Source of the DNA: an uncultured Actinomycetota bacterium
GTDB lineage: Bacteria > Actinomycetota > Actinomycetes > Mycobacteriales > Jatrophihabitantaceae
Length of the DNA: 24,000 bases
Assembly: GCA_963799045.1 (NCBI GenBank)
Contig: CAWCVN010000004.1
Coordinates: 552,645 to 576,644 of the forward strand
Reading direction: 5' to 3'
Of the stretch, positions 1-9,449 are shown piece after piece. The position numbers were made by a program, and so were the translations under genes. The notes under the pieces were generated by a model. It was not told the DNA's origin and did not search any database. It worked only from the letters and a program-made list of their open reading frames with translations. Position 1 is the stretch's first letter, and the number at the start of each line of letters is the position of its first letter.

Positions 1-236
1 GTGTGCCGCGGCCCGGCCGGCGGGTGCCCGCTCGGCCTCGCCTCCCCCGGGTTCCGGCGCGGCGGTTGCTTGCGCATCGCCGTGCGCACCAGGCCCAACA
101 GCACGCCGGCGACCGGCACCGCGATGAGGAACCGGATCACGGCGACGTCCACGCCCACGGTCTGGTCGACCAACGCCCGCCAGAGCGTCGGTGCCGAGAA
201 CACCAGCGCACACAGCAGCACGGAACCGCGGAACAT
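1..236 (-). CDS. hypothetical small membrane protein, N-terminal part only (runs off the left edge)
   Basis: Absent from the ORF track because it leaves the window. The reverse complement from ATG at 236 reads MFRGSVLLCALVFSAPTLWRALVDQTVGVDVAVIRFLIAVPVAGVLLGLVRTAMRKQPPRRNPGE... It has two hydrophobic stretches and GC3-rich codons. Its ATG shares one base with the TGA of the upstream flhF-like gene (TGATG, 234-238). No family recognised, and it is not MinD/FlhG-like. Confidence 0.45.
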   Translation of the reverse strand, partial: MFRGSVLLCALVFSAPTLWRALVDQTVGVDVAVIRFLIAVPVAGVLLGLVRTAMRKQPPRRNPGEARPSGHPPAGPRH

Positions 237-1021
237 CACGCAGCCGACTCCTCGAGCCTGGTCAGCAGCAGCAGGGCCCAGTTCGTGCGGGTTGCCGGGC
301 GGCCGTCGAGAAGCGCAACCGGGACGTCCAGCTCCCAGACGCTTGCCGGGCTGGCCGTGCGCGCGGCGCCGGTGACGACGAGCGCAGTTGGAGTGCCCAG
401 TTCGTCCACGCTGCGCGCGGTGTCGCACGACTTGCGGGTGGCGTCCACGTGCAGCCAGAACGTGTCCGCGCCCAGCGCCCGGATGATCGACGCCGGCGGC
501 GGGCCGTCGGGCTCCTCGCCGTCGGCGTAATCGATCTCGTCGGTGCCGATGACGACCAGCGTGCTCTGGTTCGGCAACCGCGCCGGCGAGTTGTCCACCT
601 GCCGGGCGCGGTCGGCGATCGCGGTCGCGTGGCCGACATCGCGGATCTCATGGTCGTCCAGCTCCGCCACGCCGGGGCAGCGGTAGGTCCACACGTGCTC
701 GGGCAGCAGCGCCATCCGCTTGATCACGAGCCGGGCGGTGCGCGCGACCTGGGTCGGCGGCCCGGCCAGCACGACGATCTGGTCGGCTCCCTCCGGCAGC
801 GGCGCTGCCTCGGGCAGCGCGTTCACCAGCTGCTCGACGGCGGCGTAACGGTGCGGCGCGTCGGTGGGGATACGCGCGATCGGCACCCCCAGTTCGGTGA
901 GGCGGCGGCGCAGCGTGAGGTGCTCGTCCGCCTCGTGCAGGCCGGCGATGCTCAGCCTCGCGCGCGCGGCCTGATGCGCCGCGACCTTCTGCTGCGCGGC
1001 CGCGGCCGGCTCCGGCACGGA

Positions 1022-1090
1022 GGTGGGCTCGGCGACGGCTGGCGGGGTGGGCTCGGCGGCGGTGGGCTCGGCGGAGGTGGGCTCGGCGGC
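1022..1090 (-). repeat. 15-bp tandem repeat GGTGGGCTCGGCGNN (4 copies, one separated by 9 bp), encoding AEPT-type repeats
   Basis: Units at 1022-1036, 1046-1060, 1061-1075 and 1076-1090. The protein reads TAAEPTSAEPTAAEPTPPAVAEPT. Confidence 0.8.
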
Positions 1091-1120
1091 GGTTGCCGGG
1101 GTCGGCTCGTGCGCCTCATC

Positions 1121-1237
1121 GGCACTGGCGGCACTGGCGGCACTGACGCCACTGACGGCACTGACGGCACTGACGGCACTGACGGCACTGGCGGCACTGA
1201 CGGCACTGACGGCACTGGCGGCACTGACGGCACTGTC
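1121..1237 (-). repeat. 13 tandem copies of a 9-bp unit (GGCACTGAC / GGCACTGGC) inside the flhF-like linker
   Basis: Counted directly from the sequence as 13 x 9 bp with 1-2 variable positions. It encodes (S-A-V/S-A-A)n in the frame joined to the C-terminal domain, and (V-P-S/V-P-P)n in the frame of ORF 952..2103. Confidence 0.9.
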
Positions 1238-1854
1238 GCGGTTGTTCGACCGGCTGCTGGCGGTCCGGGTACGGGGCCGGCGGACGCGCACGGCCTTGCG
1301 CTTGGTGCCGGCTCGCCCGTCGGCGGCCGGCTCGGGCTGCTGGGCCGGTTGGGCCGGCTCGTGGCGGCCGGCTCGGTGGCGGCCGGCTCGGGTGGGTTCC
1401 CGGTCACGGCCGGCTCGTCGGTGCTCTGGGGAGTTGCGTCGATCGCGCTGCCGGCCGGGGTCTCCGCCGGGGTGTCGATCGTCGCGTCGGCCGGGGTCTT
1501 GGCCGGGGTGTCATCCGCCGTGGTGGACGCGGTGCTGGTTTTGGTGCTGCGGCGCGAGCGGGTGCTCGTCCGCTTGGCCGTCGACCGCGTCGTCTTGCTC
1601 GCCTTGGTCGTCGGTTCGCCCGTCGTCGCGGCGGCCGACTCGTCGGCCGGTTCGCTCGTCGGGGCGGTGGCCGGCGCGCTGGTGCTGCTCACGTCCGGTA
1701 CCTGCGCCGTGGCGGTGTCCTCGGCCCCGGACCGGCCCCCTGCTGCCTGTCCGGTGGCCGGGCCGGCTGCCTCGGCGGAGCTGTTGGCCCGCGTGCGGCG
1801 CGCGCGCGTGGTCTTGGTGGCGGCGGGGGGCTGCTCGGGCTGAACCGGCGCCTG

Positions 1855-1926
1855 CGCCTTGGCCGCGCGCCCCGCCTTGGCCGCGGGCTTCGCCTTGGCC
1901 GCGGGCTTCGCCTTGGCCGCGGACTT
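1855..1926 (-). repeat. 18-bp tandem repeat CGCCTTGGCCGCGGGCTT x4, encoding K-P-A-A-K-A repeats
   Basis: Units at 1855-1872 (variant), 1873-1890, 1891-1908 and 1909-1926. The protein reads KSAAKAKPAAKAKPAAKAGRAAKA. Confidence 0.85.
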
Positions 1927-2387
1927 CGGCTCCGGCTCCTGCGCACCAGCCGGTGCCGTGGCCACCAGCTCGGGCAGGTCCGGGGAGCTCACCGAGGTGG
2001 CGGCGGGGAGCGGGACCCCGCGCTCGGCGGCCTTGCGCGCGGCGATGTCGAGGAGCATGCGGGCGAACTCGACGTTGCCCTGCTCGGCGGCCAGGGCAGG
2101 CACGGCGTCGCTGTCTGTCCGGTTTCCACCATCTCGGCGGCGGCGATGAGCGCATCCAGCGGATCGGTCGGCTCGGTGGCCGGTGCTGTGGGTGCGAGCC
2201 GGCGCTGTCCGGCGGAGGCGGGAACGGTGCTCATCTCATCCTCGATCGTGTAGCGGACGGCGACTCGCGGACGGGCGAAGAATCCGAATACGCCACCTTC
2301 GCGTGCTGTGGCTGACGTCGACGACGCGCACCTGGCCGGGGATACTCCGCATCCAACTCGGCGAGCAGCTCGTCGAGGTCGTAGCCT

Positions 2388-4444
2388 TCACGAAACAAGG
2401 TCGCGGACGTCATCGATCATCCCAATCGCGTTGACGGCTACCGAGCCGGTCGACAGCTCGGTGTAGGACATGACAGGCAGTGCCGGCACCGACAGCCGCA
2501 CCAGGCGGCGAAGCGGCAGCCGGATCTGCGCCGCGCAGACGAGCACCGGCTTGTGGCCGCGCGCGGTCTCGGTGTTGTAGCGCTCGGTGATCGAGTTGAT
2601 CAGCGACTCGGCCAGGCCCGGGTCCAGGACGAGCTGCGCACCGCCGTCGCCGGGGCGCACCGACTCGAGCATCGATTGCTGCAGCCGGGGCTCGATGGTG
2701 AGCACGTCCAGCGTCCCGTCGCTGGCACAGGCTGGCGGCGATGGCGGGAGCCAGCGCCGCGCGGGCGGCCTCGATCAGCCGGTCGGGCTCGGTGCTCGAC
2801 CTTGGCGGCGACGGACAGCGCCTCGTAGATGCGCACGAGGTCGCGGACCGAGACGCCCTCGTCGAGCAGCGCGTGCAGCACCCGCTGGATCTCGCCGAGG
2901 CTGAGCAGCGCCGGGGTGAGGTCCTCGACGACCACCGGGTGGGTGCGCTTGAGCACGCGGGTCGCGGCGGCGACATCCTCGCGGCCGAGCAGGCGGCTCG
3001 CGTACTGGCGGACGACCTCCGACAGATGGGTGATGATCAGCGAGGAGCGGTCGACGACGGTCGCGCCCAGCAACTCGGCCTGGCCGCGCAGCTCGACGCG
3101 GCAGCCAGCGTCCGGCCAGGCCGAACACCGGTTCGCGGGCCGCGCGGCCCGGGCAGGCCGTCGAGGCCGTCACCGATAGCGAGGACCATGCCGACGGGGG
3201 CCTCGCCGCGGGCCAGCTCGACGCCGTTGATGTTGACCGCGTAGGTGGCGTGCGGCAGCGTCACGCTGTCGCGCGTGCGCACCGCGGGCATGACCACGCC
3301 CAGCTCGCCGGCCAGCGAGCGCCGCAGCGCCCGGACGCGGTCGAGCAGGTCGGCGCCGGGGCCGTCCACGAGGGGCACCAGGTCGGGGGACAGGACCAGC
3401 TCCAGCGGGTCCACGACCAGCTCGCCGAGCAGCGTCTCCTCGGCGTCGGGAGCCGGGAGCGTCGGCGGCGACCGCCTGGCCGTCGGCGCCCGCCTCGTCG
3501 GCCTGGCCGGGCTTGGGCAGCCGGGAGGCGAAGAAGAACAGCATCCCGCCGACGACGATGAACGGCAGCTTGGGCAGGCCGGGTACCAGGCACAGCAGCA
3601 GCGCCGCGCCGGCGGCGATCGTCAGCGCCCGGCGCTGGCTGCCCAGCTGGCGGGAGACGAGCGTGCCCATGTCGTCGGCGTCGCTCGAGCGCGTCACGAT
3701 CAGGCCGGTCGACACCGAGAGCAGCAGCGCGGGGATCTGGCTGACCAGGCCGTCGCCGACGCTGAGCAGGCTGTACTTCGACAGCGCCTGGCCGAACGTC
3801 AGGTGGTGCTGCACCATCCCGATGACGAACCCGCCGATCAGGTTGATGAAGGTGATCATGATGGCGGCGATCGCGTCACCCTTGACGAAGCGGGTCGCTC
3901 CGTCCATCGCGCCGTAGAAGTCCGCCTCGGCGGCGATCTCCGACCGGCGCTTGCGGGCGGTCGACTCGTCGATCAGGCCGGCGTTGAGGTCGGCGTCGAT
4001 CGCCATCTGCTTGCCGGGCATCGCGTCGAGGGTGAAGCGCGCGCCGACCTCGGCGACGCGGCCGGCGCCGTTGGTGATGACGACGAACTGGATGACCAGC
4101 AGGATCGCGAAGATCACCAGTCCGATGACGAGCGAGCCGCCGATGACGAAGTGACCGAAGGCGCTGATCACGTGGCCGGCGAAGCCGTCGGTGAGCACCA
4201 GCCGGGTGGCGCTGATGTTCAGCGCCAGGCGGAACAGCGTGGCCACCAGTAGCAGGGACGGGAAGCTGGAGAAGTCGAGGGCGCGCTGGACGTACATCGA
4301 CACCAGCACGACCAGCACGGCGCCGGTGATGTTGCCCGCGATCAGGATGTCGAGCAGGGTGGCCGGCATGGGCACGACCAGCATGACGACGATGGCGACG
4401 ACCCCGATGGGTACTGCCAGCTGACTCAGCCTGCTCGTCTTCAC
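2388..4444 (-). pseudogene. flhA: flagellar type III export gate protein FlhA; five +1 frame breaks as sequenced
   Basis: GTG start at 4444 with AGAGGGG upstream. The N-terminal TM domain is unmistakable (MKTSRLSQLAVPIGVV..., FTLDAMPGKQMAIDADLNAGLIDE, FYGAMDGATRFVKGDAIA, LLSVGDGLVSQIPALLLS). The cytoplasmic domain continues through five other ORF-track frames: DPLELVLSPDLVPLVD, REPVFGLAGRWLP, LLGATVVDRSSLIITHLSEVV, TEPDRLIEAARAALAP, and DVLTIEPRLQQSMLE...VLVCAAQIRLPLRRL. The 2057-nt span equals 683 codons plus stop plus 5 extra bases. Confidence 0.9.
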
Positions 4445-4470
4445 GGCGCCCCTCTTGCCAGTACAGGTTT

Positions 4471-4504
4471 GTCGGATACCTGTGCAATCTGTGGGGTATC
4501 CGAC
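4471..4504. promoter_or_regulatory. perfect 10-bp inverted repeat in the divergent flhA / GT2 control region
   Basis: GTCGGATACC (4471-4480), a 14-nt spacer, then GGTATCCGAC (4495-4504). It sits in the least GC-rich stretch of the window, 27-60 nt upstream of the flhA GTG and 54-110 nt upstream of the GT2 start candidates. Confidence 0.4.
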
Positions 4505-4557
4505 CCCGTACTACGCGCCGTCCTGGCAATCGTTCCATCGGCAGCGCCCGCAGCGAC

Positions 4558-5820
4558 TTGAGGACCCGGTCCGGGCCGACTCAACACCGGCGCCGGCGCG
4601 CCGATTCATTAGGCGTGCTGCTTGCTGCCTGTTTGATCGTCAAGGACGCCGCGTCGACCCTGCCCCGGTGCCTGAAGTCGCTGCGCGGGCTGGTCGAGGA
4701 GGTCGTCGTCTACGACACCGGCTCGAGCGACGACAGCTGCGCGATCGCCCGCGATCACGGCGCCACGGTCGTGCAGGGCTACTGGGACGACGACTTCGCC
4801 CGGGCCCGCAACGACGCGCTTGCCGCGGTGCGGGCGGACTGGGTGCTGAGCATCGACGCCGACGAGCACGTGGAGGGCGACCCGGACCGGCTGCGGTCCT
4901 ACGTCGCGGACCTGGCCGCCGCGGGTGCCGACGGCCCGGCCCTGGTGGCCCTCGAGCGGTCCGACATCCTGCCCGACGCGTCCGGTTCCTACCGCTTCCG
5001 CACCCCGCGGCTGTTCCGGCGGTCCGGCGCGGTGTGGGAGGGGCGGGTCCACGAGACCGTCGAGGTCCGTGACACCCACGGCCGCGAGAGCGCCGTCACC
5101 GGCTGCGACCCGGCGGTGCTGCGCCTCGTGCACGACGGGTACGCCGACGCCGCGACCGCCCGCGCCAAGGCACGGCGCAACGCCGCGATCGGCCTGAGCG
5201 AGGTCGAGCAGCTGCGGGCCGACCCGGCGACGCCCCCGGCCCGGCTCGCGCGGGCCCTGGTCGACCTCGGCCGCAGCCTGGTTGCCGCCAACGACTCGGC
5301 GTCCGCGGTGTACGCCTTCGAGGCCGTCCGGATCCTGGTCTCGGGCGGGCCGATGTGGCTGCGGGCGACCGACCACCTCGCCCGGGCCCGGCTGCAGACC
5401 GGCGACTTCGACGTCGCCCGCGAGCTGGTTGCCGAGCTGCGCGAGCGGGGCGCCGACTCCCAGTACTGCGACTGGCTGCTGGCCCAGGCCCTGGCGCAGA
5501 GCGGCTCGCCGGAGCGGGCCGCCGAGCTGCTCGCGGCCATCACCGAGCTGGAGGACACCGGCGGGCACTGCTACGACCTCGGGCCGGTGGTCGAGTTCGA
5601 GGCGCTGGCGCACGCCCTGAACGGTGACGTGCGGGCGGCGGTGCGCGCCATGCTGACGGCGATGATCCGCTACGGGCGCATCGGGGACCGCGCCGAGCTG
5701 GTGCGCAGCTGGTGGGGAGACGGCGACACCGGCGGCCTGGTGGCCGAGGCCCGCGGCGTCGGGGGGCCTCACCTCGAGCAGGTGCTGGCCGTGCTGGTCT
5801 CCCAGCCCGTCGGCGCCTGA
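4558..5820 (+). CDS. family 2 glycosyltransferase with a C-terminal helical-repeat (TPR-like) domain; candidate flagellin glycosyltransferase
   Basis: Only credible plus-strand gene, and it is intact. GT2 signature: ACLIVKDAASTLPRCLKSLRGLVEEVVVYDTGSSDDSCAIARDHGATV, WDDDFARARNDAL, and the DXD-type WVLSIDADEHV. The C-terminal ~200 aa is alpha-helical and repeat-like (LARALVDLGRSLVAAND..., LLAQALAQSGSPERAAELL). The track start is TTG at 4558. GTG at 4615 (VLLAACLIVKD) is an equally plausible true start. Confidence 0.8.
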   Translation: MRTRSGPTQHRRRRADSLGVLLAACLIVKDAASTLPRCLKSLRGLVEEVVVYDTGSSDDSCAIARDHGATVVQGYWDDDFARARNDALAAVRADWVLSIDADEHVEGDPDRLRSYVADLAAAGADGPALVALERSDILPDASGSYRFRTPRLFRRSGAVWEGRVHETVEVRDTHGRESAVTGCDPAVLRLVHDGYADAATARAKARRNAAIGLSEVEQLRADPATPPARLARALVDLGRSLVAANDSASAVYAFEAVRILVSGGPMWLRATDHLARARLQTGDFDVARELVAELRERGADSQYCDWLLAQALAQSGSPERAAELLAAITELEDTGGHCYDLGPVVEFEALAHALNGDVRAAVRAMLTAMIRYGRIGDRAELVRSWWGDGDTGGLVAEARGVGGPHLEQVLAVLVSQPVGA

Positions 5821-5841
5821 GCCCGGGTTCAGGGGCTCAGG
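5816..5841. terminator. short hairpin spanning both stop codons of the convergent GT2 and flhB genes
   Basis: CCTGAGCCC (5816-5824) and GGGCTCAGG (5833-5841) form a perfect 9-bp inverted repeat with an 8-nt loop. The two TGA stops (5818-5820 on plus, 5837-5839 on minus) are inside the arms. The intergenic gap is only 16 bp. Confidence 0.35.
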
Positions 5842-6962
5842 TGGTGGGGGCGAGGGTGCGGACGGTGTGGGTGCCCATCACCGAGCCGCGCTTGCGCAGC
5901 GTCATGATGAACGCCAGCACGGTGGCGACCGCCTTGTACAGCTCGGGCGGGATCTCCTGGCCGATCTCGACGCTCTGGTAGAGCGTGCGGGCCAGCGCGA
6001 CGTCGCGCACCATCGGCACCCGGTGCTTGTCGGCCAGCTCGCGGATCTTCGCCGCCAGGTGGTCGCCGCCCTTGGCCACGACACGCGGCGCGCCGCGCTT
6101 GGGCTCGTACCGCAGCGCCACCGCCACGTGCGTCGGGTTCACGACCACGACGTCGGCGTGCCTGATGTCGGCCAGCATCCGGTTGCGGGCCATCGCCAGC
6201 GCCCGCGCCCGCCGCTGGCCCTTGATGTGCGGGTCGCCCTCGGCGTTCTTGAACTCGTCCTTGACCTCCTGCTTGGTCATCTTCAGCGGACTTGTTGTTG
6301 CGGCGGTGCACGACGATGAAGTCGGCCGATCGGCCATCGACGATGCCGGCCGCGGCCGCGTAGCGCAGGACGACGAGCGCGGTGCCGGCCGCCGCACCCA
6401 GCAGCGTCGCCAGCGACATCGAGCCCGGCGCCGTACAGCGTCGGGATCAGCTGGCGGACCGCCACGTAGACGACGAGCGGCAGCAGCGCGGTCTTCAGCA
6501 GCGCCTTGACCAGCTCCCACAGCGCGTGGGGGCCGAAGATCCGCTTGATGCCCGAGAGGGGGTTCAGGCGCTTGACCTGCGGCTTGAGCGCCTTCGGGGA
6601 GAACCAGATGCCTCCCTGCAGCGCCACCGAGACGATCGCGATGCCGGCGATCAGCAGCACCATGGGCAGCAGGGCGGCGAAGGCCGATGACGCCGCAACG
6701 TCGGGCGTCGATCAGCGCGGTGGCGACGTCCGGGGTGCGGATCACCGCCCCGCGCGAACCAGGGAGTCGGTGGCGTTGCTCAGCACGGTGCGGACGACGC
6801 GCGGCAGCACGAATGTCGCCGCCATCAGCCCAGCCAGGACCCCAGCTCGCGGGTGTTGCCGATCTGCCCGTCCCGCCGCGCCTTCTTGCGACGCTTCGGG
6901 GTGGGCTTCTCGGTCTTCTCCCCGCCGCCACCTCCTCCGCCGCTCACCGGGCGCCGCTGCAT
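5837..6962 (-). pseudogene. flhB: flagellar export switch protein FlhB; five frame breaks as sequenced
   Basis: The N-terminus (ATG 6962 or GTG 6947) reads ..GGGGGGGEKTEKPTPKRRKKARRDGQIGNTRELGSW. TM segments follow: LMAATFVLPRVVRTVL and SSAFAALLPMVLLIAGIAIVSVALQGGIWFSPKALKPQVKRLNPLSGIKRIFG. The C-terminal domain reads LKMTKQEVKDEFKNAEGDPHIKGQRRA...VVVNPTHVAVALRY, which contains the NPTH autocleavage motif. The pieces lie in frames of ORFs 5837..6931, 6283..6663 and 5829..6419, plus two unlisted stretches. Confidence 0.9.
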
Positions 6963-6981
6963 CGGGGTTGCATCCGGGTGT

Positions 6982-7748
6982 TCATCCGGTCACCGCCGAG
7001 ACGAGCTGGTTGGCCCGGTCGGCCAGCTGCACGACCGTCTCCGGCATCAGGGTCAGGCCCAGGTCCGACCAGCAGCAGGGTCAGGCCGATCTTGATCGGG
7101 AAGCTCATCGTGAAGGCGTTCAGCTGCGGCGCGATGCGGTTCAGGACGCCCAGCGCGAGGTCGGCGATGAACAGCACGACGAGCAGCGGTCCGGCGATCT
7201 GCAGCGCGGAGACGAACATCTCGGGCATCGTGGAGGTCAGGGCGCTGGTCCAGCTGGGACAGCGACAGCGTGGCGTCCAGCGGGATCGCGTCGAACGTGC
7301 GCAGGAAGCCCTGGAAGATCAACAGGTGCGCGTCCGTGGCGAAGATCAGCGTCGTGCACAGCAGCGCGTAGAAGCGGCCGAGCACCGAGGTCATCGTCGT
7401 CGTCAACGGGTCGTACGCGGCCGAGAGCGAGAAGCCGCCGAACAGGTCGAGCAGCCCGCCGGCGACCTCCACCGCGCTGAACAGCAGCCGGGTGAGGAAG
7501 CCCAGCGCGGCGCCGACGAGGACCTGCTCGATCAGCGTGCCGGCGAGCGGGGACGATCTGCGCCGCCGGCGCGTGCAGGCGCGCTGGGCGGGAACGAGGG
7601 CGAGCGCGAGCCCGACCGAGAGGACCGTCTTCACCGTGGCCGGGATGCCCCCGGTCGCGACCGGCGGGGCGAAGGTCATCCACGCCAGCACCCGCGCGCT
7701 GACCAGCAGCAGCGCGACGAGCGAGGAGGTGGGGACGGCGAACTGCAC
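6982..7748 (-). pseudogene. fliR: flagellar export gate protein FliR; two +1 frame breaks as sequenced
   Basis: Sits after fliQ and before flhB. The N-terminal two thirds come from ORF 7053..7748 (LVALLLVSARVLAWMTFAPP..., LIEQVLVGAALGFLTRLLFSAVEVAGGLLD). It continues in ORF 6944..7228 (FVSALQIAGPLLVVLFIADLALGVLNRIAPQLNAFTMSFPIKIGLTLLLVG). The tail LGLTLMPETVVQLADRANQLVSAVTG is in a third frame, with stop TGA at 6982-6984. Confidence 0.85.
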
Positions 7749-7751
7749 GGC

Positions 7752-8021
7752 TCAGCCCAGCAGGCTCGGGATGGAGTGGTAGAGCTGCTGGGTGAAGCTG
7801 ACGATCGTGTCGAGCATCCAGTGGCCGCACAGCAGCAGCGCGATGCCGACGCCGACCGCCTTGGGCACGAAGGCGAGGGTGAACTCCTGGATCTGGGTCG
7901 CCGACTGGAACAGCGAGACGGCGAAGCCGATCACCAGCGCGGTCACCAGCGCCGGCGCGGCCAGCTTGGCGGCGACCAGCATGACCTGGAAGCCGATGTG
8001 GATGATCTGGGTGTCGGTCAT
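7752..8021 (-). CDS. fliQ: flagellar export gate protein FliQ (89 aa)
   Basis: ATG at 8021. Sequence is MTDTQIIHIGFQVMLVAAKLAAPALVTALVIGFAVSLFQSATQIQEFTLAFVPK... Size, two TM helices and the position between fliP and fliR are typical. The upstream part of track ORF 7752..8390 is a spurious extension. Confidence 0.9.
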   Translation of the reverse strand: MTDTQIIHIGFQVMLVAAKLAAPALVTALVIGFAVSLFQSATQIQEFTLAFVPKAVGVGIALLLCGHWMLDTIVSFTQQLYHSIPSLLG

Positions 8022-8026
8022 GGGCG

Positions 8027-8977
8027 CTAACCCGATCCGTAGCTCTGGACGAGGGAGGTGATGATCAGGCCCCAGCCGTCGACGAGGACGAACAGCAGCA
8101 GCTTGAACGGAAGCGACACCGAGACCGGCGGGAGCATCATCATGCCGAGGCTCATCAGCGACGACGACACGACAAGATCGATGATCACGAACGGGATGTA
8201 GACCACGAAGCCGATGATCATCGCGGCGCGCAGCTCCGAGAGGACGAACGCCGGGATGAGCGTCGTCAGCTGAACCTGTGACTTGTCCGGCGGGTTGGGC
8301 AGCTTCCCGGCGCGGAGCATGAGCGCGATCTCCTGCGGACGGGTGTGCGCGAGCATGAAATCGCGCAGGGGCGCGACGCCGGCCTTCCACGCCACGTCCC
8401 GGGTCTTGGTCCCGTCCAGGTATGGATGGATGCCGTTGTCGTAGACCTTGCTCAGGACCGGACCCATAACGAACAGGCTCAGGAACAGCGACAGGCCCGC
8501 CAGCACCTGGTTGGGCGGCACGGACTGCAGCCCGAGCGCGTTTCGCGTCAGCGACAGGACGACGAAGATCTTGGTGAAGCTGGTGACCAGTAGCAGCAGC
8601 GACGGTGCGACAGCCAGCACGGTCACCAGCATCAGCAAGGTGATCGACTGGCTCGGCTTGCCGCCGACGTTGACCGTCACCGAGCCCGAGCCGCTGCTGC
8701 CGTCGGGGGCGGCCGGGCTGGACGGGGCCGTCGGGCCGGTCGGGGCGGTCGGCGCGGCGAGCGGCTGCGCGTAGGTGCCGGTGAGCGGCGCTGCTTGCGC
8801 GGCGAGCTGGGTGCCGGCGGCGGCGGGCGTGGCCGCGTGCGCTGAGCCGGATCCGTGACCGTAGATCAGTGCGGTGGCGGCCAGTAGCGCCAGCAGGAAC
8901 AGCGCCAGCCGTGATGCAGTTCGTCCTGTCGTGACCTCGAGGCGTCCGTGCCCTTCTGTGGCCCGACCGGGCCTCAC
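8027..8977 (-). CDS. fliP: flagellar export gate protein FliP
   Basis: Conserved core: FTKIFVVLSLTRNALGLQSVPPNQVLAGLSLFLSLFVMGPV, FVLSELRAAMIIGFVVYIPFVIIDLVVSSSLMSLGMMMLPPVSVSLPFKLLLFVLVDGW. I prefer GTG at 8977, which forms a GTGA overlap with the fliO stop. Codons between 8978 and 9025 have poor GC3 in this frame. The track start is ATG at 9025. Confidence 0.88.
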   Translation of the reverse strand: MRPGRATEGHGRLEVTTGRTASRLALFLLALLAATALIYGHGSGSAHAATPAAAGTQLAAQAAPLTGTYAQPLAAPTAPTGPTAPSSPAAPDGSSGSGSVTVNVGGKPSQSITLLMLVTVLAVAPSLLLLVTSFTKIFVVLSLTRNALGLQSVPPNQVLAGLSLFLSLFVMGPVLSKVYDNGIHPYLDGTKTRDVAWKAGVAPLRDFMLAHTRPQEIALMLRAGKLPNPPDKSQVQLTTLIPAFVLSELRAAMIIGFVVYIPFVIIDLVVSSSLMSLGMMMLPPVSVSLPFKLLLFVLVDGWGLIITSLVQSYGSG

Positions 8978-9449
8978 GTCCGCCGAGCGGTCAGGTCGCG
9001 CAGCGACTCGAGGGTTTGCCGCCACGTCGCCGGGGAGAGGGCCGAGCCGGTCAACGGCCCGCGGGGCGCGCCGGGCATCCCGGCCGCGGACAGCGCCGCG
9101 CCGCTGGGTGCGGGCGCCGGGCGGTCGGCCGCGGCGCGGGGGGCAGGCGCGGCGCGCGCGCCGGCTTCGCCGCCTCGGCCTGCAGTGCGTCCTCCACCGC
9201 GTCGAGGTCGGCGTCGCCGAGCACGCTGACCTGCCCGTCGGTGATGCCGACGATCAGGGCCTGGTCGAGCACGCGCACCACCGCGATCGAGGTCGAACGC
9301 GACAGCTGCTGGCGCGACAGCAGCTCGATCAGCTTGCCGTTCTTGCCGCGCGCACCGCTGCGCTTCATTCGCCGGGCGATCAGCCACATCAGGCCGAGGA
9401 CCGCGGAGAGCGAGATCAGCAAGCGCCCCACCAGCGCTACCGTGTTCAT
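8974..9449 (-). pseudogene. fliO: FliO-type flagellar export accessory protein; one frame break as sequenced
   Basis: ATG at 9449. A single TM helix (LVGRLLISLSAVLGLMWLIARRM) is followed by LIELLSRQQLSRSTSIAVVRVLDQALIVGITDGQVSVLG. It sits between fliN and fliP. The last ~17 codons in the other frame (WRQTLESLRDLTARRT, stop at 8974) have high GC3 and end in a GTGA overlap with fliP. This implies a -1 break somewhere in the Pro/Ala-rich stretch 9060-9165. The alternative is an intact 132-aa product ending at 9051. Confidence 0.65.

What the first reader, a model, noticed from the sequence alone, without database searches (positions are those of the whole stretch)
4445..5841. GmaR-like GT2+TPR glycosyltransferase inserted antisense between flhB and flhA
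In the Bacillus and spirochete-type operon order that this cluster otherwise follows exactly, flhB and flhA are adjacent and co-transcribed. Here a 420-aa plus-strand gene separates them. It is convergent with flhB across a 16-bp gap and divergent from flhA across a gap of ~113-170 bp. Its N-terminal half is a clear family 2 glycosyltransferase (DTGSSD, WDDDFARARN, IDADE). Its C-terminal half is helical-repeat and TPR-like. A GT2 domain fused to TPRs and encoded inside a flagellar locus is the architecture of Listeria GmaR. GmaR is a flagellin O-GlcNAc transferase that also acts as an anti-repressor. The Clostridioides difficile flagellin glycosyltransferase has the same architecture. The gene is therefore a candidate flagellin-modifying enzyme, and possibly a regulatory one. 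The insertion also means flhA and flhF-like must have their own promoter or be read through an antisense gene. It is the only ORF in the damaged left third of the window with an unbroken frame.
Basis: partly seen in the sequence, partly recalled or inferred. Interest (0 to 1): 0.6.

Follow-up and report, generated by a model that had tools for sequence, protein, structure and literature searches.

The report
GmaR-type flagellin glycosyltransferase beside flhA
An intact gene lying backwards between two flagellar export genes of a soil actinobacterium encodes a sugar-adding enzyme related to Listeria GmaR that most likely decorates flagellin, which makes it an ordinary new member of a known enzyme kind sitting in an unusual place.

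Summary
A plus-strand gene (4558/4615-5820) sits between minus-strand flhB and flhA, 16 bp from the flhB stop and 113-170 bp from the flhA start.

- **Homology:** its closest solved relative is the Listeria GmaR glycosyltransferase domain (profile E 1.9e-42), followed by SunS and ThuS.
- **Fold:** a confident AlphaFold2 model (pLDDT 94) shows a GT-A domain plus 12 helices. Their top 50 fold neighbours are all TPR proteins.
- **No regulatory part:** the protein is about 401 aa and lacks GmaR's linker and antirepressor domains, so the regulatory idea is unsupported.
- **Flagellar linkage:** 53 of 84 actinobacterial homologue loci carry flagellar genes within 10 kb, and 31 have fliC as a nearest flagellar gene within 3.5 kb. 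In a sample of 301 genomes, 17 of 19 with the enzyme also have flagellin.
- **Position:** the flhB|flhA site is specific to a small Jatrophihabitantaceae clade. One relative carries the gene in the opposite orientation.
- **Promoters:** sigma-28-type motifs face both ways in the spacer. The one for the GT ends 7 nt before GTG 4615, which suggests a leaderless mRNA. flhA has such a motif in 9 of 12 loci across the phylum, so the junction is an operon boundary.
- **Neighbours' frameshifts:** these are probably assembly errors.

This scan has found GmaR-like flagellin transferases before in other phyla. Verdict: new member of a known kind.

The parts
4615..5820 (+). GT2+TPR glycosyltransferase gene, most likely 401 aa from GTG 4615 (an alternative TTG at 4558 gives 420 aa); stop TGA at 5818-5820
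   Evidence: codon-position GC; homologues at 60-67% identity, E to 1e-159; residues 1-19 disordered; promoter motif ends 7 nt before GTG
4615..5142 (+). GT-A (family 2) catalytic domain, P0001 residues 20-195. It holds DTGSSD (4714-4731), DAD (4855-4863), HE (5050-5055) and HDGY (5131-5142); the conserved K204..RN208 motif lies just downstream at 5167-5181, in the first helix
   Evidence: Pfam PF00535; GmaR GT domain 22ao_A at E 1.9e-42 by profile and 1.4e-18 by single sequence; invariant columns; strands and helices in the model
5149..5799 (+). C-terminal TPR-like alpha-solenoid, 12 helices (P0001 residues 198-414)
   Evidence: AF2 models with pLDDT 94.2 and 96.1; top 50 Foldseek PDB neighbours of the isolated domain are all TPR proteins; profile hits to TPR and PPR proteins
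4581..4607 (+). Sigma-28 (FliA/WhiG)-type promoter motif TCAA-N15-GCCGATTC for the GT gene; the -10 element ends 7 nt before GTG 4615, implying a leaderless or near-leaderless mRNA
   Evidence: the same arrangement lies 8-9 nt from the start in L004, L008 (TCAT), L010, L096, L020 and L050; the motif is validated upstream of both fliC genes and flbD
4535..4561 (-). Sigma-28-type promoter motif TCAA-N15-GCCGATGG directed at flhA
   Evidence: conserved 102-121 nt upstream of flhA in 9 of 12 loci
4517..4527 (-). Invariant box GCCAGGACGGC at the start of the flhA leader (3-bp stem with an AGGAC loop)
   Evidence: Invariant in nine aligned flhA leaders; also upstream of flhA in L082 and L083, and at the contig end of L055, 15 nt after a sigma-28-type motif; a single exact match in the window
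4471..4504 (.). 10-bp perfect inverted repeat (GTCGGATACC / GGTATCCGAC, 14-nt spacer) within the flhA leader; only a GGAT.CC core is kept in L004 and L008
5821..5836 (.). 16-bp gap between the convergent GT and flhB stop codons; no terminator-like hairpin
5837..6931 (-). flhB, readable only across four frames
2391..4444 (-). flhA, N-terminal 319 residues intact and the rest spread over three further frame segments

Best explanation
The gene encodes a soluble cytoplasmic protein O-glycosyltransferase of the GmaR/SunS branch of family GT2. The N-terminal GT-A domain binds a nucleotide sugar through the DTGSxD and DxD motifs and a divalent cation, and it transfers a sugar to Ser/Thr residues in the Ser/Thr-rich central segment of flagellin before export. 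The C-terminal TPR-like solenoid is the acceptor-recognition module. The gene is its own transcription unit, driven by a sigma-28 (FliA)-type promoter that would yield a leaderless mRNA, so the enzyme would be made together with flagellin. It sits at the flhB|flhA junction because that junction is an operon boundary in Actinomycetota and tolerates a gene in either orientation. Shown here: homology, fold, conserved catalytic motifs, flagellar gene linkage and co-occurrence, and conserved promoter motifs. Inferred: the acceptor (flagellin), the donor sugar (unknown), the transcription start, and TPR-mediated substrate binding.
For: The best solved relative is the GmaR GT domain (22ao_A, E 1.9e-42), followed by SunS and ThuS; by single sequence the match is E 1.4e-18. 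The AF2 model has pLDDT 94.2 and pTM 0.90, with GT-A plus 12 helices. Full-length fold matches to SunS/ThuS reach E about 1e-14, and the isolated C-terminal domain matches only TPR proteins in its top 50. Catalytic motifs are invariant in 71 homologues. Of 84 homologue loci, 53 carry flagellar genes within 10 kb; 31 have fliC as a nearest flagellar gene within 3.5 kb, often 30-200 bp downstream of the GT. In 301 sampled Actinomycetes genomes, 17 of 19 with the enzyme also have flagellin, against 35 of 282 without it (the counts include unpublished genomes G006, G029, G035 and G042; without them the figures are 16 of 18 and 32 of 279). A sigma-28-type motif ends 7-9 nt before the start codon in the window and six relatives, including copies outside flagellar clusters, and the same motif precedes both fliC genes. 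The genome's flagellin has a Ser/Thr-rich centre, and further glycosyltransferase genes (GT4, WavE-like) follow fliS. GmaR is a proven flagellin O-GlcNAc transferase (PMC9638930), and GT2 plus TPR is already used as a marker for flagellin glycosyltransferases in Clostridium (PMC13317340).
Against: There is no biochemical or mass-spectrometric evidence for this organism or for any actinobacterium that I could find. A predicted GT-flagellin complex scored 0.15 against a mark of 0.34, which is neither support nor evidence against. Thirty-one of 84 homologue loci, mostly Micromonosporaceae and Cryptosporangium, show no flagellar gene within 10 kb, and close relatives at 57-61% identity sit elsewhere. 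Neighbouring flagellar genes are frame-broken in this assembly, so if the breaks are real the system may be defunct.
Confidence: 0.75

Rival explanations
1. It is a FliA-regulated protein glycosyltransferase whose acceptor is not flagellin but another protein, such as the hook, cap or junction proteins, a pilin, or a surface protein.
For: The acceptor is inferred only from gene linkage. Several lineages place the gene next to flhA rather than fliC (L005, L051, L073). Micromonosporaceae copies are unlinked to flagellar genes.
Against: The commonest neighbour by far is fliC. The nearest characterised homologue, GmaR, acts on flagellin (PMC9638930). A GT-FlhA cytoplasmic-domain complex prediction scored 0.00, which is not evidence against but gives no support.
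Confidence: 0.12
2. It is a relic in a decaying flagellar cluster: the flagellar export genes are true pseudogenes and the glycosyltransferase is retained for another role or is not yet degraded.
For: About 16 frame breaks lie in flhF-like, flhA, flhB, fliR and fliO while the GT is intact (note e1-2490636).
Against: Frame breaks also occur in unrelated genes elsewhere: a large glutamate dehydrogenase on C4 in seven pieces, an M24 peptidase paralogue on C6, and the second fliC. The genome scores only 81.5% complete despite having 8 contigs. Broken segments keep up to 87-95% identity to relatives without internal stops. This pattern fits patchy indel errors of a long-read assembly. At the observed break density, an unbroken 1.2-kb gene is expected by chance about 13% of the time (my estimate).
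Confidence: 0.06
3. It is a SunS-like glycocin S-glycosyltransferase that modifies a small secreted peptide.
For: The best NCBIfam hit is TIGR04195 SunS, and the best full-length fold matches in the PDB library are SunS and ThuS.
Against: The TIGR04195 score is 39.8 against a cut-off of 350. GmaR is the closer sequence relative. None of the window ORFs scanned shows a peptidase-ABC exporter or thiol-disulfide oxidoreductase domain; those annotated are flagellar, and small precursor peptides were not searched for. The family co-occurs with flagellin.
Confidence: 0.02
4. It is a bifunctional enzyme and regulator like GmaR, sequestering a flagellar repressor.
For: Homology to the GmaR GT domain. 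The gene lies beside a divergent promoter region with an inverted repeat.
Against: It lacks the roughly 230-residue linker and antirepressor domains that bind MogR (PMC9638930). No MogR family match was found in the genome, although that search's control was silent.
Confidence: 0.03

Closest known systems
Listeria monocytogenes GmaR (flagellin beta-O-GlcNAc transferase and MogR anti-repressor; PDB 22ao GT domain, 7X9R residues 141-637)
   Same: Homologous N-terminal GT2 GT-A domain over its whole length, with the same DTGSxD, DxD, HE, HxGY and K..RN motifs. It is followed directly by a TPR-type helical domain, is encoded among flagellar genes, and is a soluble cytoplasmic protein.
   Different: It is about 401 aa against 637 aa and has no linker or antirepressor domains, hence no basis for MogR-type regulation. 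The TPR part shows only marginal sequence similarity to GmaR's (7x9r_A E 0.004), and GmaR is not among the top 50 fold neighbours of the isolated C-terminal domain. The donor sugar is unknown. It is actinobacterial, sigma-28-driven, and located at the flhB|flhA junction.
SunS / ThuS glycocin S-glycosyltransferases (PDB 7MSN, 7MSP, 7MSK)
   Same: Same two-domain architecture and size (about 420 aa): GT-A plus a C-terminal TPR-like helical domain. Foldseek gives E about 1e-14 and TM 0.57-0.70; the profile gives E 2.5e-27.
   Different: 15-20% identity, and the NCBIfam score is far below the cut-off. There is no glycocin gene context; the context here is flagellar.
GT2+TPR 'flagellin glycosyltransferases' predicted in Clostridium flagellar glycosylation islands (PMC13317340), and the TPR-bearing Maf-1 and FlmG enzymes
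   Same: A TPR module coupled to a transferase and encoded with flagellin genes. TPR is taken to confer flagellin recognition.
   Different: Maf and FlmG have unrelated catalytic domains and transfer nonulosonic acids. The clostridial GT2+TPR proteins are predictions in Firmicutes and were not compared here.

Membership tests
GmaR-type flagellin glycosyltransferase (catalytic module) | N-terminal GT2 GT-A domain homologous to GmaR residues 1-200 | tested here: met
   22ao_A: E 1.9e-42, 149 bits, profile 4-194 against chain 9-201; single sequence E 1.4e-18
GmaR-type flagellin glycosyltransferase (catalytic module) | Conserved nucleotide-sugar and metal-binding motifs (DTGSxD, DxD) | tested here: met
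   D53, T54, G55, S56, D58, D100 and D102 are invariant in 71 sequences and aligned with the same residues of GmaR
GmaR-type flagellin glycosyltransferase (catalytic module) | TPR-type helical domain directly after the GT domain | tested here: met
   12 helices at pLDDT above 90; top 50 PDB fold neighbours are all TPR proteins; Pfam TPR hits are below the gathering threshold
GmaR-type flagellin glycosyltransferase (catalytic module) | Genetic linkage to flagellin and flagellar genes | tested here: met
   The window gene lies inside the flagellar cluster; 53 of 84 homologue loci are linked; 17 of 19 genomes co-occur with flagellin
GmaR-type flagellin glycosyltransferase (catalytic module) | O-glycosylation of flagellin Ser/Thr | not testable with these tools
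   Needs mass spectrometry or an enzyme assay; the complex prediction was inconclusive
GmaR as bifunctional anti-repressor | C-terminal linker and antirepressor domains (GmaR residues about 400-637) | tested here: not met
   The protein ends at residue 420 of P0001 after the TPR-like helices; the GmaR domain map is from PMC9638930
GmaR as bifunctional anti-repressor | A MogR repressor partner in the genome | tested here: inconclusive
   PF12181 found nothing, but the control genomes were also silent and the genome is 81.5% complete
SunS family glycocin S-glycosyltransferase (TIGR04195) | Score above the equivalog cut-off | tested here: not met
   39.8 bits against a cut-off of 350
SunS family glycocin S-glycosyltransferase (TIGR04195) | Neighbouring glycocin precursor, peptidase-ABC exporter and thiol-disulfide oxidoreductases | tested here: not met
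   The window ORFs scanned are flagellar genes and none shows an exporter or oxidoreductase domain; small precursor peptides were not searched for
SunS family glycocin S-glycosyltransferase (TIGR04195) | GT-A plus C-terminal helical domain fold | tested here: met
   Foldseek 7msn/7msk/7msp at E about 1e-14, TM 0.57-0.70

The most novel reading that the evidence does not exclude
The position is functional rather than merely tolerated. Back-to-back sigma-28-type promoters co-fire the glycosyltransferase and the flhA export-gate operon. In addition, unterminated GT transcription runs antisense into flhB across the 16-bp gap, so late-stage FliA activity would couple flagellin glycosylation to re-tuning of the export apparatus. 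The recurrent GT-flhA adjacency in three separate lineages (L005, L051, L073) would then reflect a working link between flagellin modification and the FlhA docking platform.
Probability: 0.07. Interest if true: 0.55.

Novelty: new member of a known kind. Interest (0 to 1): 0.3.

Why it matters
Flagellin glycosylation is well studied in Proteobacteria and Firmicutes, but I found no report for Actinomycetota. This family gives a clear candidate enzyme, present in about a third of the flagellated Actinomycetes genomes sampled (17 of 52). It can be tested in culturable motile genera such as Kineococcus, Motilibacter and Actinoplanes. The short form, which has the GmaR catalytic and TPR modules without the antirepressor, also suggests that Listeria's regulatory function is an add-on to a widespread simple enzyme. 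The side observations on a phylum-wide sigma-28-type promoter and an invariant leader box in front of flhA bear on how actinobacterial flagellar genes are organised. On its own, the gene is an expected kind of enzyme in an unusual slot.

Tried and rejected
- **GT-flagellin complex prediction:** score 0.15, below the 0.34 mark. No conclusion either way.
- **GT-FlhA cytoplasmic domain complex prediction (L004 proteins):** score 0.00. No conclusion either way.
- **Public reads:** only three soil metagenomes hold 5-8% of the sampled words. The laid contigs are short and mostly 90-95% identical, so they come from relatives. They carry single-base indels near some frame junctions (6827, 7062), but they cannot tell assembly error from mutation. 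Three X1 contigs match 4309-4789 exactly.
- **Long-ORF coverage per 8-kb bin:** this did not discriminate damaged from undamaged stretches.
- **Sigma-70 promoter and intrinsic terminator scans of 4200-6100:** nothing found.
- **Inverted repeats flanking the gene as an inversion scar:** only repeats typical of high-GC DNA. The best pair (4542-4569 / 4665-4692, 82% complementary) is unexplained.
- **Consensus fold of flhA leaders:** only a 3-bp invariant stem and no covariation.
- **MogR search:** no match, but uninformative because the control was silent.
- **Extra 418-aa gene next to the GT in L004 and L008:** no Pfam match, and the gene is absent from the window.
- **Literature:** searches for actinobacterial flagellin glycosylation and for a paper on PDB 22ao found nothing relevant.
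Full report
**1. What is in the sequence**

The window has about 72% G+C, so long ORFs occur on both strands. A 420-codon ORF runs 4558-5820 on the plus strand and a 387-codon ORF overlaps it on the minus strand. Codon-position G+C settles which one is real. From 4650 to 5700 the third position of the plus-strand frame is 95-98% G+C and the second position is lowest, while the flanks show the mirror pattern of minus-strand genes.

The flanking genes are flhA (N-terminal half, 3170-4444) and flhB (5837-6931). Upstream on the minus strand lie fliR, fliQ, fliP, fliO, fliN, fliM, fliL, motB, motA, flbD, flgE, flgD, fliK, a P60-SLT enzyme, fliI, fliH, fliG, fliF, fliE and flgC. The plus-strand gene is the only one on that strand. 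Its stop lies 16 bp from the flhB stop. Its start lies 113 bp (TTG 4558) or 170 bp (GTG 4615) from the flhA start.

**2. Start codon**

Residues 1-19 are not conserved, several homologues begin at the position equivalent to V20, and the model has pLDDT below 60 there. A promoter motif ends 7 nt before GTG 4615 (section 6). I take 4615 as the start, giving 401 aa.

**3. What the protein is**

- **Pfam and NCBIfam.** Pfam gives Glycos_transf_2 (E 1.1e-12) and sub-threshold TPR matches. The best NCBIfam hit is the SunS S-glycosyltransferase model, far below its cut-off at 39.8 against 350 bits.
- **Solved relatives by sequence.** A profile of 24 homologues searched against all PDB sequences finds the Listeria GmaR glycosyltransferase domain first (22ao_A, E 1.9e-42, covering the whole domain). 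SunS (E 2.5e-27) and ThuS follow. The window protein alone gives E 1.4e-18 to GmaR.
- **Conserved motifs.** DTGSxD, DxD, HE, HxGY and K..RN align between GmaR, SunS and this family, and are invariant or nearly so in 71 homologues.
- **Whole-protein model.** AlphaFold2 with that alignment gives pLDDT 94.2 and pTM 0.90: a GT-A domain (residues 20-195) followed by 12 helices (198-414). Foldseek against the PDB puts SunS and ThuS first over the full length (E about 1e-14, TM 0.57-0.70). The GmaR GT entry appears to be newer than that fold library.
- **C-terminal half.** Modelled alone it reaches pLDDT 96.1, and all of its top 50 fold neighbours are TPR proteins, including consensus TPR, kinesin light chain, LapB, MamA, NlpI and the OGT TPR domain. 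Its sequence profile also hits TPR and PPR repeat proteins.

**4. What it is not**

[quoted passage not shown] The window protein stops after the TPR-like helices, so it has no counterpart of the regulatory half.

A search for the MogR DNA-binding family found nothing, but the control genomes were silent too, so that result carries little weight.

Nothing in the window resembles a glycocin cluster.

**5. Is the family flagellar?**

- **Taxa.** Homologues at 60-67% identity come from Jatrophihabitantaceae metagenome bins. More distant ones come from Kineosporiaceae, Kineococcus, Motilibacter, Dermatophilaceae, Micromonosporaceae, Cryptosporangium and Acidimicrobiia.
- **Gene neighbourhood.** I fetched 84 distinct homologue loci with up to 10 kb on each side and searched them with 25 flagellar proteins.
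  - 53 loci carry flagellar genes.
  - 31 of these have fliC as a nearest flagellar gene within 3.5 kb, often 30-200 bp downstream of the transferase.
  - 12 sit next to fliS, fliD or fliE, mostly at the fliS-flgB/fliE junction.
  - 4, counting the window itself (which is not one of the 84), lie between flhB and flhA.
  - The unlinked copies are mostly from Micromonosporaceae and Cryptosporangium.
- **Co-occurrence.** In an even sample of 301 Actinomycetes genomes, 19 have the enzyme at E 1e-30 or better and 17 of those have flagellin. Flagellin occurs in 52 of 301 overall, that is 35 of 282 genomes without the enzyme. The two exceptions match only the GT domain. These counts include unpublished genomes G006 (both genes) and G029, G035, G042 (flagellin only). 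Without them the figures are 16 of 18 and 32 of 279. Related genomes are not independent, so I give no test statistic.
- **The likely acceptor.** The genome's own flagellin genes lie on another contig, in the order fliA, two fliC, fliD, fliS. A GT4 and a WavE-like gene follow at the contig end. The 297-residue flagellin has a Ser/Thr-rich centre.

**6. Position, orientation and transcription**

On a tree of 84 sequences the window groups with L004 and L008 (SH-aLRT 97). All three have the gene antisense between flhB and flhA. These three join L005, L010 and L096 in a clade with support of 100.

- In L005 the gene lies between flhB and flhA on the same strand as them, overlapping the flhB stop.
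- L010 and L096 are outside flagellar clusters.
- Sister groups have the gene at fliS/fliE or beside fliC.

The flhB|flhA site is therefore a local peculiarity of this clade, and the orientation has flipped within it. L004 and L008 carry an extra 418-aa gene of unknown family after the transferase, which the window lacks.

A first-stage note on an exact sigma-28-type promoter before flbD (e1-2490640) led me to search for TCAA-N14-16-GCCGAT.

- **In the genome.** The strict motif occurs 35 times on both strands of the 4.0-Mb genome. Two of these lie back to back in the 170-bp spacer: one on the plus strand at 4581-4607 and one on the minus strand at 4561-4535.
- **Validation.** The motif also precedes fliC2 exactly and fliC1 with two changes in the -10 element.
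- **For the GT.** The -10 element ends 7 nt before GTG 4615. The same arrangement holds in L004 and L008 (TCAT for TCAA), and in L010, L096 and two Dactylosporangium loci. In total, 10 of 86 loci have a relaxed motif within 250 nt upstream, against about 0.8 expected from its density (my estimate). This points to FliA-dependent, leaderless expression, including for copies that have left the flagellar cluster.
- **For flhA.** A motif lies 102-121 nt upstream of the start in 9 of 12 loci that hold an flhA 5' end, from Actinomycetes to Acidimicrobiia, whatever gene lies upstream.

flhA therefore heads its own transcription unit across the phylum. The junction is an operon boundary, which explains why a gene can sit there in either orientation. 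No terminator-like hairpin separates the transferase from flhB, so convergent read-through is possible but untested.

**7. The damaged neighbours**

Against intact proteins of L004, flhA reads in four frame segments, flhB in four, fliR in three, fliO in two and the flhF-like gene in four. The transferase, fliQ, fliP and everything from fliN onward are unbroken.

The same kind of break is found elsewhere:

- a large glutamate dehydrogenase on C4, in seven pieces;
- an M24 peptidase paralogue on C6;
- the second flagellin gene.

The genome is 81.5% complete by marker genes although it has only 8 contigs. The broken segments remain up to 87-95% identical to relatives.

I read this as patchy indel error of a long-read assembly (about 0.7) rather than decay of the flagellar system. 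Public reads could not settle the question.

**8. Mechanism and verdict**

The most likely reading (0.75) is a cytoplasmic flagellin O-glycosyltransferase. The GT-A domain carries the chemistry, the TPR-like domain recognises flagellin, and the enzyme is made under FliA control together with its substrate. The donor sugar cannot be told from sequence.

Complex predictions with flagellin (0.15) and with the FlhA cytoplasmic domain (0.00) fell below the mark of 0.34. They are neither support nor evidence against.

This is a new member of a known kind. GmaR-like GT2+TPR flagellin transferases are established in Listeria, are used as annotation markers in Clostridium (PMC13317340), and earlier reports of this scan describe them in several other phyla. 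What is new is modest: the actinobacterial short form, its clade-specific slot at the flhB|flhA boundary with flipped orientation, and its leaderless sigma-28-type promoter.

Noticed in passing
window 4517-4561 (minus strand); L004 8287-8331, L005 11282-11326, L008 9868-9912, L048 7679-7729, L068 17979-18029, L073 5053-5113, L076 19583-19634, L080 19450-19501: flhA is preceded in 9 of 12 actinobacterial loci by a sigma-28-type motif 102-121 nt upstream. 7-22 nt after the -10 element sits an invariant 11-nt box GCCAGGA(C/G)GGC, a 3-bp stem with an AGGAC loop that resembles a CsrA GGA-hairpin site. The box alone also precedes flhA in L082 and L083, and lies at the contig end of L055.
   Followed up: partly
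G000 C3:66454-67045 (L097, L098); fliC leaders at L091 10080-10160 and 11065-11185: The genome has fliW and csrA directly after flgL. Both flagellin leaders contain GGA-loop hairpins (GCC-ACGGAC-GGC and CCGGTCC-ACGGAA-GGACCGG), as in the Bacillus CsrA-FliW-flagellin circuit. Together with the flhA box, this suggests that CsrA control may extend to flhA.
   Followed up: partly
window 236-9449; G000 C4:355462-360256; C6:130664-131412; L091 11188-12156: Single-base frame breaks are not confined to the flagellar genes. A 1588-aa-type glutamate dehydrogenase, an M24 peptidase paralogue and the second fliC copy are also split across frames, which points to patchy assembly error.
   Followed up: partly
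G000 C3:75600-81201 (L091 14418-19995): After fliS the contig ends in a likely flagellar glycosylation island: a GT4-type glycosyltransferase, a WavE-like protein and several ORFs without a Pfam match. C3 probably joins the end of C4 just beyond flgB/flgC.
   Followed up: no
G000 C7:147543-148343 (L092 9543-10343): A paralogue of the transferase (about 47-52% identity to family members) matches only the GT domain. It has no TPR part in any frame and lies next to an ECF sigma factor and a TetR gene, not flagellar genes.
   Followed up: partly
L004 9575-10831; L008 11420-12655: The closest relatives carry an extra 418-aa gene with no Pfam match between the transferase and flhB. The window lacks it, but the window's genome has relatives of it on C7 (53% identity), C3 and C8.
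   Followed up: no
L057, L058, L075 (flhB then fliS-fliD-fliC reversed, then GT); L048, L058, L061, L069, L072, L075, L076, L083: In Acidimicrobiia-type loci the homologue is the N-terminal module of proteins of 1,200-1,360 aa, and the reversed fliC-fliD-fliS block plus this giant transferase follow directly after flhB. The flhB end is therefore a recurrent docking point for filament and glycosylation genes.
   Followed up: no
window 4542-4569 and 4665-4692: A 28-nt inverted repeat (82% complementary) brackets the GT promoter, with one arm over the flhA promoter motif and the other inside the GT coding region. Its significance is unknown and it may be chance in high-GC DNA.
   Followed up: no
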